The notes beneath the pieces were generated by a model. It was not told the origin of the DNA, searched no databases, and worked only from the letters and a program-made list of their open reading frames with translations. Below are positions 981 through 5,027 of a DNA stretch of 64,000 nucleotides, piece after piece. Made by a program: the position numbers and the translations under genes. Every line of letters begins with the position of its first letter. The first letter of the stretch is position 1. Origin of the DNA: Octopus sinensis (Eukaryota); contig NC_042998.1 of NCBI RefSeq assembly GCF_006345805.1, forward strand, positions 117,738,001 through 117,802,000. The letters are read 5' to 3'.

Positions 981-3905
981 TAAACGTATTATATTGCCCT
1001 CGAAGAATATTTCGATATATAGGTACATAATAACATTTTTACAATCAACACAGAATTAGCTTGCCTAATTAGGAAAATTTAATAGAAATCTAATGAAACG
1101 ACTGCTGTCACAATACAGCAACGTCTATAACTATCTCTACACTAATTGTATTAGCAAACGACTCTCTATTGCTCCTACAAATAAACGTTCATTTTAGTAA
1201 AAAGATTTTCTAAGATTCCTTGAGCTCGAATGTTTGTTATTTCATATATTTATTTGAGTAGTATAGTTTTCATGAAGTATTGCCTCGTATATATGCTGTA
1301 AATTATATTTTCATGCTAAAACAATACAATTTGTGACAGATAAAACAGGCTGCTATATCTAGATAGTATTTCAATATTTCCATGTTAGGACTCCTTCGTC
1401 AGGAAATATTAGGAGACATTTGTTATTCGCTGACTTCTCTGTCTTGCAGTATGTGAGTTCGGCATGTTTTATTAGAGTAACCAATCTACCTTCAGCAACT
1501 CTGATCTACTAATATGTGGTATATTTTTATTAAAAAATATACGTTCATTCTTAAGTTTCCAAATTTCCTTTGTTTCTGTAGATTCAACGGCAAGCTAGAT
1601 TTCGTGGGTATAGAATTTCTGAAGTTATATCGATTGAGGTACTATGTGCATTGAAGTGTTCTTACTTTTCAGCTCAAACATGATCATATATGTTGGTGGT
1701 GCTGCGTTATGCATAAAATCACTCGTAACATATGTAGTACATTCTACATCGAAAGTAGCATCAGGCAATTTATGCATACAGATTAAATATCAACTATATG
1801 CTAATATTTCTTCACTAAAAGAATACAACAAAATCTACAGAAATACAACATACAAGTTCCGATTGAAGCTATAGAAAATATACACGAAAAACGTGAAAAT
1901 AAAGAGGCACTAATTACGATCTACACACCATGTTAATAACAGATTAGAGAAGCACGAAGCCGATATCAAATTCGTTTCCAGAGATGTCCTGAAGTAGGTG
2001 TGCACACTGTGACATATTGAAATGCGAGTAACACTGTCAAACTGCTCTAATTTTATAGATTGCATTACCATTTTTTCAAATAGTATAATTATAATCGCCA
2101 ATTTTTATATTGTTATTCTGCCTTACTCTGGTTTATTCTCTTATCCTGCAAATCTTAAACCTACTTTTCAACTAGAAGAGATGTTCTTATAGGACGAATC
2201 TTAATACTTTAAGTTAACGAAATTTTAAAATCTCAATATTCCTTATTCTGTGAGTGAAACAGAATATAAATATTTGCTTCGCTGTTTCTCAATGTGATCA
2301 TTAACTTTATGATTTTTTACCATCTGCTTCTGAATGCAAACTCCGTTTTCATAAACGTTTTCAAATGTTACAATATGATTATTTCCTGGAATACGTTAGC
2401 TTTTGTTTTGATGAAGAACTGAATCAAGCTAATGTTAAAGACATAAATGTCACGATGTAGTCATTTCCTCATGCAATGTAACGTTTGTTTTGGCGATAAA
2501 TTGAATAATAACATATCTTAGACGAGAAATAAAAATGGTTTTAACCACATATTTCATTTGAATTCATATTAGTTTGAAATGAAATAGATAAAAATAAGAT
2601 TGCCACAAGACGCACTACTGTTAACCATAAGAAAGAAAATAAGAAATTCGTTTAATTCATGATAGTAATGGACGTAAACTTTTATCGATTCAGTTTTATT
2701 CTTGCAATTACTGAAACTTCGCAGATAATATCAGCTCAGTTAGATGTGTCTTGAGAAATCTGTAGCGCTCGCAAACGATTGAAAACTTATGTTGGATTAG
2801 ATGTCATTATAAGGAGAATATAATCTACTGAATCTTATGGAAAATCAGTTGATATCGTTTTGAAATGATAATCATCATTAATAAAGTTCGTTAAGGGCTT
2901 CAATCGGATAATACGGATTTAAGTTATATTGTCATTATCAAATCGGCTCTGAGAAATATCCTAATGTATAATAATTAATGCCATTACTACGTCCCGTAGA
3001 AGGCAGACTCTCATTTGAAGAAATGTGTGTGTGTCCTTTTCCTCTTTGTATCACTACATGCCAACCGTTTATGATTATTTCTGTATGTCTTTCATAGGTT
3101 ATAGGTGCAGCACGAAGTAACGTGTACGATAAAAACCGGACTTTAACAAGGTCGACACCAGGATCTATTTCATCAACTACGATACTTCACCAAACCTGGG
3201 TGCATTTCAATAACTGAAATATGTTTAAGAATTAAACATTACCATGTGTGCTGGGTCCATATGTGAATTTATTATCCTTCGTAAGAATTCCAGTAAGATA
3301 CTTATTAAATTTTGAGTCAGTCATGGAGTACCAATATGGTCACACGTTGCGATAGAAATATCAACGAAGAATCAAATATATCTAAAGACACCATGACAAG
3401 TTTCTATGTAGAATGGCTCAATGCGTAATATCATCCGGTGTATAATATACTAGCAACTTAAAAGATGCAATGGGCATCGCTTTAAGCATTTGATCATATT
3501 GCTCAGCGTCGTCTCGCCTTTCCATGGTTAGGTGGCTGATACCGTAAAACAAAATCATTGTGCTTACGACAATCGTATTTCAGTATAAAATTCTTACTAT
3601 TGCAAATCAACAACTGCACCCAATTTAAGTTTTAACATGCATATTAGATTGTGAAATCTATTAATTCTACATATTTATTACTCTTTTACATGTTTCAGTC
3701 AGTTGAACGTGACCATGCTGGAGCACCGCTTTAGTCGAGCAAATCAACCCCAGGACTTATTATTTGCAAGCCTAGTACTTATTCTACCAGTCTCTTTTGC
3801 CGAACCGCTACGTTACGGCGACGTAAACACACCAGCATTGGTTGTCAGGCGATGTTGGGGGGACAAACACGGACGCACAAACATATACACACATACATAT
3901 ATACA

Positions 3906-3964
<59 letters not shown>

Positions 3965-3966
<2 letters not shown>

Positions 3967-4335
3967 GTACTGCAAATTTAGGGTGAATACTTGGTAAGTG
4001 TAAGCACCTGTATACGCCGGATAGTGGAAGAGGTGAGAGAGAATATATCAAATAAAATCAAAAACAGAACACAAAGGATATCGCGGTACACGTGTTTCAA
4101 GCTTTATAAACGACCTGTTCTTACATCAGTGTATAATAGATATAACGGATGGTTTAAAGCTCTCTTATTTGTAGTCTGATGTAACTCTTTGGAATAACAA
4201 TATACGCGGCTGAAGAGAGCTTTAAACCATATTTTATATCTTTAAAAACTGATGTAAGAACAGATCGTTTATAAAGCTTGAAACAAGTGTAACGCGATAT
4301 CCTTTGTCTTCTGTTTTTGATTTTATTTGATATAT
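3965..4335. mobile_element. Short foldback element with ~120-bp inverted arms (4043-4166 / 4213-4335), Penelope-pLTR/retrozyme-like
   Basis: The arms are imperfect reverse complements (the ORF track gives ISNKIKNRxQRISRYTCFKLYKR on both strands). The left arm has an unpaired outward extension (3965-4042). It is inserted in (TA)n. Confidence 0.85.
4205..4296 (+). ncRNA. Type I hammerhead ribozyme motif
   Basis: CGCGG-CUGAAGA-GAGCUUUA..UAAAGCUU-GAA-AC AAGU GU-A^-ACGCG: intact core, 8-bp stem II, short stem III, and a stem I with one mismatch. The opposite arm keeps CCGCG and the palindromic ACACGUGU. Confidence 0.8.
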
Positions 4336-4336
4336 A

Positions 4337-4416
<80 letters not shown>

Positions 4417-5027
4417 GACGGTCTTCTTTCAGTTTCCGTTTACCAAATCTACTCACAAGTCTTTGTTCGGCCCGAGGCTAAAGTGAAAGACACTTGTCCA
4501 CGATGCCATGCAGTGGGACTGAAACCGGAACTATGTGGTCCGTTAGTAAGCTACTTACCACATAGCCGCTCCTGACTAAAATCAAAAACCAACAGTGTAT
4601 TCCATCTTCCCCAAATATAGTCAACCTCAATTAATTTCTTCGAATGTGAAATGCTCAGAAAGTCTAAATATTTGATATAAACACCGTGTGTTTATTATTT
4701 ATTATTATAGGGAAATAAACTTCATAACTCTATCTCGACTCGGCAGCCGCAACACCAGTTGTAAATTATAGAATAGGCTGCTGTAATGTCAATAAAACAA
4801 GTTCCATTAAAACCGGAACAATAAAATCAAAATATGAGCAACGAAAATAAAGGAGAGTAATTGCAAAGGAAAGAAATAAGAGGAAGAAATAGCATAGAAT
4901 AAATTGTGAGGAATTTAATAACACCATCAAAATTAAATGCAATAGGAATGTCTCCAGGTTAATAAAGTCACTAATTTTAAGCTAAACTATTTACACATGT
5001 ATGTGTGTCTGCACGTGTGTATGAATA

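What the first reader, a model, noticed from the sequence alone, without database searches (positions are those of the whole stretch)
3965..4335. Foldback element carrying a near-canonical hammerhead ribozyme
Seen: the right arm has a full type I core, CUGAAGA/GAA/GUA, with an 8-bp stem II and a stem I. The left inverted arm is cut just inside the core (it lacks CUG) but keeps the palindromic ACACGUGU stem III, and it extends ~75 bp beyond the homology. Known: Penelope-like element pseudo-LTRs carry minimal hammerheads with palindromic stem III and often integrate with an inverted, truncated copy. Inference: this is a coding-free PLE-derived/retrozyme-like element targeting (TA)n, here nested in a SINE.
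Basis: partly seen in the sequence, partly recalled or inferred. Interest (0 to 1): 0.75.

Follow-up and report, generated by a model that had tools for sequence, protein, structure and literature searches.

The report
Non-coding Penelope-type foldback with hammerhead motif
This is an old, mirror-image copy of an abundant non-coding repeat in an octopus-like genome; the copy has the insertion architecture of a Penelope-like retroelement, and it carries a hammerhead motif that is predicted, but not shown, to cut its own RNA, so the kind is known although the family seems undescribed.

Summary
Window 3965-4335 is a foldback lying between two (TA)n runs. The right arm has CUGAAGA (4210-4216), an 8-bp helix II, GAAA (4280-4283) and a cut site after A4291. 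The left arm is cut at A6 of the core and carries a one-sided 78-bp tail.

It belongs to a family with at least 1,579 first-look candidates in the 2.72-Gb genome. Every arm ends at one of two fixed 3' points, with or without the tail, and next to TA repeats. Inner ends vary from copy to copy. In 20 of 20 foldbacks, one tailed arm abuts one untailed arm head-to-head. This is the published insertion signature of Penelope-like elements, not that of a MITE.

The longest form is about 3.7 kb and has no ORF with a protein-family match. No autonomous partner was found.

In the family consensus the hammerhead is complete. A homodimer fold gives the classic double hammerhead. The same descriptor hit only 2 of 1,000 shuffled windows.

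Against this, no Rfam hammerhead model matches, the stems show no covariation, 10.1-11.1 is G.U, and no raw RNA reads were available. The window copy itself carries two damaging substitutions.

Verdict: a new, non-autonomous member of a known kind, with cleavage untested. Earlier notes of this scan describe similar Penelope-type foldbacks on other DNA (shark- and ray-type genomes).

The parts
3909..3964 (.). Left (TA)n run that abuts the tailed end of the element
   Evidence: Sequence; repeat family D1
3965..4042 (-). One-sided 'tail': a 3' extension carried by the minus-strand arm only (family unit positions about 1466-1557)
   Evidence: Conserved in the other copies at query 5-205, 92-96% identity. 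Arms end either at unit position 1465 or at 1532-1557
4043..4166 (-). Left arm: an inverted, 5'-truncated copy whose inner end is A6 of the hammerhead core. It keeps helix II, GAAA, the ACACGUGU palindrome and the GUA/C site
   Evidence: Inverted repeat I1; alignment of arms; unit positions 1342-1557
4165..4335 (+). Right arm: a 5'-truncated copy without tail (unit positions 1294-1465). It abuts the left arm with a 2-nt overlap
4200..4300 (+). Type I minimal hammerhead motif. Helix I pairs 4200-4209 with 4292-4300; core 4210-4216; helix II 4217-4279; GAAA 4280-4283; helix III 4283-4290; predicted cut after A4291. This copy has C-to-A in the helix III palindrome (4286) and C-to-A at position 1.1 (4292) relative to the family majority
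   Evidence: Sequence; descriptor scan; unconstrained fold shows helix I and a three-part helix II; majority of the family
4336..4415 (.). Right (TA)n run that abuts the untailed end
3664..3883 (+). Flanking very high-copy SINE-like repeat ending in the left microsatellite (context only)
   Evidence: Summed contig depth in the millions in two DNA-type runs
4416..4587 (-). Flanking very high-copy SINE-like repeat whose 3' end meets the right TA run (context only)
   Evidence: depth table; sequence. The octopus-SINE identification is from recall

Best explanation
The stretch is one old head-to-head (foldback) insertion of a non-coding repeat family; the family was likely copied in trans by a Penelope-like reverse transcriptase/GIY-YIG endonuclease, and about 40 nt from its 3' end it carries a minimal type I hammerhead motif predicted to self-cleave as a dimer. 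Shown here: the family is abundant, and copies share fixed 3' ends but have variable 5' ends. In each foldback, two 5'-truncated copies of the same 3' region meet at their inner ends, and only one of them bears the tail. The 3' ends lie in TA repeats. The longest form (about 3.7 kb) has no recognisable coding capacity. Inferred: an RNA of the element is reverse-transcribed from a nicked TA-rich target. The target 3' end would pair with one of two U/A-rich sites in the RNA, either the GAUAUAU at unit position 1465 or the end of the tail, which would explain the two classes of 3' end. Because (TA)n is self-complementary, both target strands could prime, which would give two converging cDNAs that are joined head-to-head. 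Inferred from the literature, untested here: the hammerhead, whose helix III is an 8-nt palindrome, would be active only when two copies pair, and would process element transcripts. Its exact role in Penelope-like elements is unknown. The window copy is probably catalytically impaired.
For: Family size and the 5' truncation gradient, as first-look candidate counts: 9 for the 5'-most 300 nt, 28 for unit positions 1-132, 400 for the middle, and 1,579 for the 3' region. Architecture: all arms end at unit position 1465 or at 1532-1557. In 20 of 20 foldbacks, one tailed arm abuts one untailed arm, with gaps of -9 to +25 nt and inner ends between unit positions 976 and 1407. In 18 of 19 foldbacks the two arms are more alike than their mean identity to other copies. 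Of 28 long copies, 4 or 5 have an inverted truncated arm next to their 5' end, as does L179. TA repeats: 58 of 93 3' ends have a strict (TA)n flank, and most of the rest are degenerate TA or CA repeats. These features match published text on Penelope-like elements: an inverted 5'-truncated copy, a tail at one end, a (TA)n bias, and a hammerhead in the terminal repeat (PMC8557442, passages). Hydra-1-type Penelope-like copies in this same genome show the same two kinds of 3' end next to (TA)n, and a hammerhead starting CUGAAGAG with a 7-bp helix II (142 pattern matches against 0 for the reversed control; sequences; published motif row). Hammerhead: the family majority has an intact core, an 8-bp helix II, helix I of 4 bp plus a U.G pair, and the ACACGUGU palindrome. 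Of 79 arms, 48 meet all criteria. The strict descriptor gives 2 hits per 1,000 shuffled windows. An unconstrained homodimer fold is a double hammerhead with an 8-bp intermolecular helix III, at -57.7 against 2 x -23.7 kcal/mol. The core and helix II differ from the majority at 2.5% of cells, against 6.0% in the 3' flank and 8-9% in the helix II insert. Non-coding status.
Against: No Rfam hammerhead family matches the window copy or a consensus-like copy, even at E<=10. There is no covariation: 91.9% of cells are paired against 92.0% in shuffles, and 404 of 500 shuffles score as high. The 10.1-11.1 pair is G.U in 71 of 73 arms, whereas G-C is described as highly conserved in Penelope-type hammerheads. 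Helix II carries a 47-nt insert. No autonomous element with nucleotide or protein similarity was found in 30 GIY-YIG loci, 8 full-length Penelope-like copies and 12 Hydra-type loci. I saw no partial tandem (pseudo-LTR) copy. The tail is 78-92 nt rather than the published 30-40 bp. Several single-arm copies have 5' flanks that are not TA repeats, so the TA run could be an element-borne tail rather than the target. The lower divergence of the core rests on non-independent copies.
Confidence: 0.75

Rival explanations
1. These are dead-on-arrival truncated copies of an autonomous Penelope-like element whose coding version I failed to find. The 'non-coding unit' would then be only its long 3' untranslated region.
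For: I underestimated the unit's length twice while walking upstream: 0.74 kb, then 1.55 kb, then about 3.7 kb. Earlier notes of this scan on shark-type genomes reached this conclusion for similar foldbacks. Penelope-like ORFs are very common in this genome, with 5,029 GIY-YIG first-look candidates.
Against: Five of the 9 copies that hold the 5'-most 300 nt start at the same base. Two of them start at the same motif right after unrelated flanks: a TA/TG microsatellite in L176, and an inverted arm in L179. None of 35 ORFs of 45 aa or more reaches a Pfam cut-off. No Penelope-like protein similarity was found in 28 of 28 loci. The one Penelope-like ORF found upstream (L179 1807-4876) lies outside the element, beyond its inverted arm, and belongs to another family.
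Confidence: 0.1
2. It is a SINE-like element mobilised by a LINE, with its own (TA)n tail. The hammerhead-like motif would be a passenger or a chance match.
For: There is 5' truncation. TA repeats always sit at the 3' end but often not at the 5' end of single-arm copies. The SINE-like repeats around the window copy also end in TA or ACAT repeats. LINE ORFs are frequent nearby.
Against: Both arms of a foldback copy the same 3' region and point their 3' ends outward. In L1 twin priming (recalled from Ostertag and Kazazian 2001) the inverted part comes from a different, more 5' region. The two alternative 3' ends with a 78-92-nt tail are also found in Hydra-type Penelope-like copies of this genome. 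The motif sits where Penelope-like elements carry theirs.
Confidence: 0.08
3. It is a TA-targeting MITE or foldback DNA transposon, and the hammerhead-like motif is chance.
For: It has long inverted arms, TA dinucleotides on both sides, and a high copy number. About 85 strict-descriptor hits would be expected by chance in 2.72 Gb, extrapolated.
Against: Many copies are single arms. Inner junctions differ in every foldback. The outer ends are not inverted repeats of each other, because one end has the tail. Longer copies reach 3.7 kb with a steep 5' truncation gradient.
Confidence: 0.03

Closest known systems
Minimal hammerheads in the terminal repeats of metazoan Penelope-like elements (Cervera and de la Pena 2014, PMC4209133; passages read)
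   Same: Type I topology; a long helix II (7-8 bp); a short helix I (4-5 bp); a very short helix III with palindromic sequence, so that two copies can form an active dimer; massive copy number; position in the element's terminal region.
   Different: Helix II carries a 47-nt insert that folds into two further helices. The 10.1-11.1 pair is G.U instead of the conserved G-C, or else G is the extra nucleotide after A9 and faces a U. No reverse transcriptase gene is attached. No covariation is seen within this one family.
Hydra-1_Obim, a (TA)n-targeting Hydra-clade Penelope-like element of Octopus bimaculoides (Craig et al. 2021, PMC8557442; text passages and supplementary rows read)
   Same: It is present in this genome. 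Its hammerhead starts CUGAAGAG with a 7-bp helix II and lies 30-40 nt from the 3' end. Copies end either directly in (TA)n or after a tail of roughly 70 nt. Inverted pairs of copies occur.
   Different: It encodes RT and endonuclease (2.5 kb). It has no detectable nucleotide similarity to this family outside microsatellite-like stretches. In the Hydra-type copies the tail repeats the element's own 5' start; in this family it does not.
Metazoan non-LTR retrozymes (Cervera and de la Pena 2020, PMC7229834, passages; Li et al. 2026 preprint 10.64898/2026.07.22.740005, abstract and section 14)
   Same: They are non-coding, hammerhead-bearing repeats that are proposed to be non-autonomous derivatives of Penelope-like elements.
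   Different: Retrozymes are head-to-tail tandem arrays of 150-450-bp units with canonical hammerheads, and they are expressed as circular RNAs. This family is dispersed, is not tandem in about 70 loci, reaches 3.7 kb, and has a non-canonical motif.
Putatively non-autonomous Chlamys elements such as MRC1 of Chlamydomonas (Craig et al. 2021, passage)
   Same: They are non-coding elements with Penelope-type insertion features.
   Different: [quoted passage not shown]

Membership tests
Hammerhead ribozyme, type I | Conserved core C3-U4-G5-A6-N7-G8-A9 ... G12-A13-A14 ... A15.1/U16.1, H17 | tested here: met
   Present in the window's right arm. The nine fixed core letters are intact in 65 of 79 arms.
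Hammerhead ribozyme, type I | Three helices around the core, with helix I open | tested here: met
   Helices I and II appear in unconstrained folds. The hammerhead-constrained monomer is 2.4 kcal/mol above the MFE, and the dimer MFE is a double hammerhead.
Hammerhead ribozyme, type I | Match to a curated covariance model (Rfam Hammerhead_1 and relatives) | tested here: not met
   No hammerhead family at gathering score in 64 kb, and none at E<=10 on 521 nt of the window or on 181 nt of the consensus-like copy L018. The same model does find another family in this genome, at up to 48.2 bits.
Hammerhead ribozyme, type I | Compensatory changes in the helices | tested here: inconclusive
   In 73 arms, 2 of 30 pairs show a double change, and paired cells are 91.9% against 92.0% in shuffles. 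The copies look like neutral decay of one young consensus, so the test has little power.
Hammerhead ribozyme, type I | Self-cleavage at H17 | not testable with these tools
   Only assembled contigs of public runs were on offer, with no raw reads.
Penelope-type minimal hammerhead (PMC4209133) | Palindromic 15.2-16.2 and loop 3; helix II 7-8 bp; helix I 4-5 bp | tested here: met
   The 8-nt palindrome is intact in 55 of 79 arms, helix II has at least 7 bp in 76 of 79, and helix I has at least 3 of 4 pairs in 72 of 79. The palindrome in the window's right arm is broken by one C-to-A change.
Penelope-type minimal hammerhead (PMC4209133) | G10.1-C11.1 pair and an extra nucleotide between A9 and 10.1 | tested here: not met
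   G.U in 71 of 73 arms. Alternatively, G can be read as the extra nucleotide facing an unpaired U, as in the published parse of Hydra-1_oBim. Either way it departs from the rule.
Penelope-like element (insertion unit) | ORF with reverse transcriptase and GIY-YIG endonuclease | tested here: not met
   At most it is a non-autonomous dependant.
Penelope-like element (insertion unit) | 5' truncation with an inverted 5'-truncated copy directly adjacent | tested here: met
   20 foldbacks with variable inner ends. The loci of the first search were chosen by likeness to the window's foldback, so the foldback share is biased.
Penelope-like element (insertion unit) | Short extension ('tail') at one end only | tested here: met
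   In 20 of 20 foldbacks one arm ends at unit position 1465 and the other at 1532-1557. The tail is 78-92 nt here, against 30-40 bp in the paper.
Penelope-like element (insertion unit) | Pseudo-LTR from partial tandem copies | tested here: not met
   I saw no head-to-tail pair in about 70 loci.
Penelope-like element (insertion unit) | Insertion bias for microsatellites, here (TA)n | tested here: inconclusive
   58 of 93 3' ends have strict TA flanks. 5' flanks of single-arm copies are TA-like only in a minority. No empty site was recovered.
Metazoan non-LTR retrozyme | Head-to-tail tandem array of 150-450-bp units, each with a hammerhead | tested here: not met
   A different family in this genome does form a 431-bp x 2 tandem.
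MITE / foldback DNA transposon | Uniform copies bounded by terminal inverted repeats | tested here: not met
   Single arms, a one-sided tail and variable centres.

The most novel reading that the evidence does not exclude
This is a free-standing, non-coding parasite of Penelope-like elements. It shares no sequence with any autonomous element and keeps only three things in common with them: a hammerhead close to the 3' end, a tail, and a U/A-rich priming site. That would make the hammerhead a cis-acting requirement for Penelope-type retrotransposition rather than a passenger. The foldbacks would come from symmetrical double priming on the self-complementary (TA)n target.
Probability: 0.3. Interest if true: 0.6.

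Novelty: new member of a known kind. Interest (0 to 1): 0.38.

Why it matters
What the hammerhead does in endonuclease-bearing Penelope-like elements is still unclear. Craig et al. 2021 (passage) even consider that the ribozymes may simply parasitise the elements. This family may help with that question. It is abundant and non-coding, has the Penelope-type insertion signature, has no detectable similarity to the coding elements of the same genome, and yet keeps a complete hammerhead whose core is the least diverged part of the region. That makes it a natural minimal substrate: it narrows the candidate cis-requirements to a short 3' module that could be tested. It also warns annotators that such foldbacks will be called MITEs, hairpins or miRNA-like loci. 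The best Rfam match here was a plant miRNA model, far below its threshold.

Tried and rejected
- **Rfam.** No hammerhead match. The MIR868 and other miRNA matches, all far below their gathering scores, only reflect the long hairpin and the TA runs.
- **Covariation within the family.** No signal.
- **RNA evidence.** No RNA holder was listed. All runs were Logan contigs whose RNA label is a guess. Laying them showed family sequence in runs under at least three organism codes, but nothing about transcript ends or circles. Contig breaks near the cut site coincide with a variable base and were not used.
- **Empty site.** No contig bridged the insertion.
- **Autonomous partner.**
  - Thirty loci from a GIY-YIG (PF01541) search, 8 full Penelope-like copies of two families (46% amino-acid identity to each other) and 12 Hydra-type loci show only microsatellite-like nucleotide matches to the unit.
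  - tblastn with their proteins found nothing in the unit.
  - One Penelope-like ORF upstream of a long copy (L179) proved to be a separate insertion, lying beyond that copy's inverted arm.
- **Full length.** My first two estimates (0.74 kb from L018, 1.55 kb from L082) were wrong. Walking upstream gave about 3.7 kb.
- **Tail as the element's own 5' start.** This holds for Hydra-type copies but not for this family.
- **Chaining weak BLAST hits to define 5' ends.** This was spoiled by microsatellite-like parts of the unit, so only ends beyond unit position 900 were read.
- **Earlier findings.** Look-ups by sequence and by place in this genome returned nothing.
- **Literature.** In searches and the passages I read, I found no description of this family or of hammerheads in octopus repeats beyond the Hydra and Naiad rows of PMC8557442. 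Repbase and Dfam could not be consulted.

Full report
**What is at 3965-4335.**
- One search shows the element between two TA runs (about 3909-3964 and 4336-4415).
- The inverted repeat is real: 4043-4136 against 4242-4335, 94 nt, 94% complementary.
- On the plus strand the right arm reads as follows:
  - the 5' strand of helix I ends at 4209;
  - CUGAAGA is at 4210-4216;
  - helix II pairs 4217-4224 with 4272-4279 (8 bp, the closing pair G.U) around a 47-nt insert;
  - GAAA is at 4280-4283, followed by a short helix III (4283-4290);
  - A4291 is the cleavage-site nucleotide, and the 3' strand of helix I follows it.
- The left arm, read on the minus strand, begins at A6 of the core. It therefore lacks C-U-G, keeps the ACACGUGU palindrome, and continues for 78 bp (3965-4042) with no counterpart on the right.
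- Relative to the family majority, the right arm has two damaging changes: C-to-A inside the palindrome and C-to-A at position 1.1.

**The family.**
- A search of the window's own genome (2.72 Gb, 13,516 contigs) gave 1,579 first-look candidates. Scoring 40 of them gave 89 matches.
- I aligned about 70 loci to a long copy, called the 'unit' here (L082:7604-9160). Every arm ends at unit position 1465, directly in TA repeats, or at 1532-1557 after the tail and again next to TA repeats. By a strict rule, 58 of 93 3' ends have a (TA)n flank.
- Inner ends differ from copy to copy.
- In 20 of 20 foldbacks one tailed and one untailed arm meet head-to-head, with -9 to +25 nt between them. Inner ends lie anywhere between unit positions 976 and 1407.
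- In 18 of 19 foldbacks the two arms are more alike than they are on average to other copies. That fits one event making both arms.
- Many copies are single arms.
- The loci of the first search were chosen by likeness to the window's foldback, so the share of foldbacks is not a genome-wide figure.

**Length and coding capacity.**
- Walking upstream corrected me twice.
- The longest form is about 3.7 kb: roughly 2.2 kb upstream of unit position 1, plus 1.5 kb. This form is seen in L179 and, with an extra insertion, in L176.
- Two copies start at the same motif right after unrelated flanks.
- Five of the 9 copies that hold the 5'-most 300 nt start at its first base.
- First-look candidate counts rise from 9 (5' end) to 28, then 400, then 1,579 (3' end). 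This is a steep 5' truncation gradient, though these counts are rough lower bounds.
- Of 35 ORFs of 45 aa or more in the long form, none reaches a Pfam cut-off. Two chance-level hits lie below their cut-offs.
- Proteins of two coding Penelope-like families of this genome find nothing in the unit, nor in the 28 loci that hold its 5' part.
- A Penelope-like ORF upstream of L179's copy lies beyond that copy's inverted arm and belongs to another insertion.

**Is the hammerhead more than chance?**
- The window copy alone is weak evidence. It passes my descriptor only without the helix I rule, and that looser rule gives 0.15 hits per shuffled window.
- The family majority is complete. Of 79 distinct arms, 65 have the nine fixed core letters, 76 have at least 7 bp in helix II, 55 have the full palindrome, and 48 meet all criteria.
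- The strict descriptor hit 2 times in 1,000 dinucleotide shuffles of the 64-kb window, both strands. That extrapolates to about 5e-5 for one 1.5-kb unit, but to about 85 chance hits in the whole genome.
- Unconstrained folds show helix I and a three-part helix II.
- An unconstrained homodimer fold gives the double hammerhead with an 8-bp intermolecular helix III, 10 kcal/mol better than two monomers.
- The core and helix II differ from the majority at 2.5% of cells, against 6.0% in the 3' flank and 8-9% in the helix II insert. This hints at selection on source copies, but the copies are not independent.
- Against the motif:
  - no Rfam hammerhead model matches, even at E<=10;
  - the stems show no covariation;
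  - 10.1-11.1 is G.U.
- The genome does hold canonical Hammerhead_1 matches of another family: 8 over the cut-off among 74 scored. That family shares CUGAAGAG and a GAAACAYGUGU stretch with this one. I read this only as a hint of common descent.

**Comparison with what is known.**
- Passages of Craig et al. 2021 (PMC8557442) describe Penelope-like insertions as follows: 5'-truncated, often with an inverted 5'-truncated copy directly at the 5' end, with a short tail at one end only, biased to microsatellites ((TA)n for the Hydra and Naiad clades), and with hammerheads in the terminal repeats.
- Their supplement lists Hydra-1_Obim (2,507 bp, (TA)n) and its hammerhead.
- A 23-nt piece of that motif occurs 142 times in this genome, against 0 for the reversed control.
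- Those copies end either directly in (TA)n or after a tail of roughly 70 nt, and they occur as inverted pairs.
- So the architecture of the family studied here is mirrored by a coding Penelope-like element in the same genome, although I found no sequence similarity between them.
- Cervera and de la Pena 2014 (PMC4209133) define Penelope-type minimal hammerheads by a long helix II, a short helix I, a palindromic helix III region, dimeric action and low activity in vitro. This motif fits those points but not their G10.1-C11.1 rule.
- It is not a retrozyme in the sense of PMC7229834, because I saw no tandem arrays.

**Mechanism.**
- Shown: the copy architecture, the fixed 3' ends, the TA association, and the absence of coding capacity.
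- Inferred: mobilisation in trans by a Penelope-like enzyme.
- Inferred: priming of reverse transcription from a TA-rich DNA end, at either of two U/A-rich sites of the RNA. This would explain the tailed and untailed ends.
- Inferred: double priming from both strands of the self-complementary target, which would explain the foldbacks.
- Predicted and untested: dimer-dependent self-cleavage after the GUA.
- The role of that cleavage is unknown. It cannot define the 5' end of the DNA copies, because full-length copies start elsewhere.
- The window copy is an old, decayed member. Its arms are 93-94% alike, and its hammerhead is likely impaired.

**Verdict.**
- It is a new, non-autonomous member of a known kind rather than a new kind.
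- Ribozyme activity and the partner element remain open.
- Earlier notes of this scan describe comparable Penelope-type foldbacks in shark- and ray-type genomes. There they were read as truncated copies of coding elements; here the longest form itself is non-coding.

Noticed in passing
L092, L093, L102, L086 (3' of the ORF) and L118:5850-5890: The most abundant coding Penelope-like family of this genome has ORFs up to 883 aa, a C-terminal GIY-YIG domain, 1.15-kb direct repeats 99% alike in L118, and 3' ends in (TA)n. In 5 of 5 copies read, its 3' region has a hammerhead-like motif with UUGAUAA in place of CUGAUGA. That puts U3 and A8 where C3 and G8 pair. The motif continues with a 5-bp helix II, GAAA and a palindromic ACAUGU.
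   Followed up: partly
L124-L135; L129:1337-2219: Another repeat family carries canonical Rfam Hammerhead_1 matches, up to 48.2 bits, with 8 over the cut-off among 74 scored. In L129 it forms a 431-bp x 2.0 tandem (98% matches) whose unit begins with a TA run, so it looks retrozyme-like. No Penelope-like protein lies within 1.5 kb.
   Followed up: partly
L164, L170, L174 (about 90-160 nt after the pattern match at 1501): In Hydra-1-type copies, the 'tail' that follows the 3' end repeats the first 50 nt or so of the published Hydra-1_Obim consensus, after a short linker. So in that family the tail looks like the start of a second, tandem copy.
   Followed up: partly
L089:2621-2678 (+) and L094 (minus strand, about 886-943): Two further hammerhead-descriptor hits lie next to decayed GIY-YIG ORFs. 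Each has CUGAUGA, a 39-nt helix II region and an 8-nt palindromic helix III (ACUCGAGU, ACGAUCGU), and each is oriented opposite to the ORF.
   Followed up: no
window 4105-4272 (minus strand): Rfam's plant MIR868 model matches the foldback at 36.3 bits (E 1.6e-05), far below its gathering score of 200. This is an artefact of the long hairpin, but such loci could be mistaken for miRNA precursors.
   Followed up: no
L084:3242-6170 and L085 (same LINE-like ORFs, opposite orientation): Two long copies of the family carry independent insertions of the same LINE-like element (endonuclease plus RT ORFs) at similar internal positions but in opposite orientations. This suggests a preferred target inside the unit's microsatellite-like part.
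   Followed up: no
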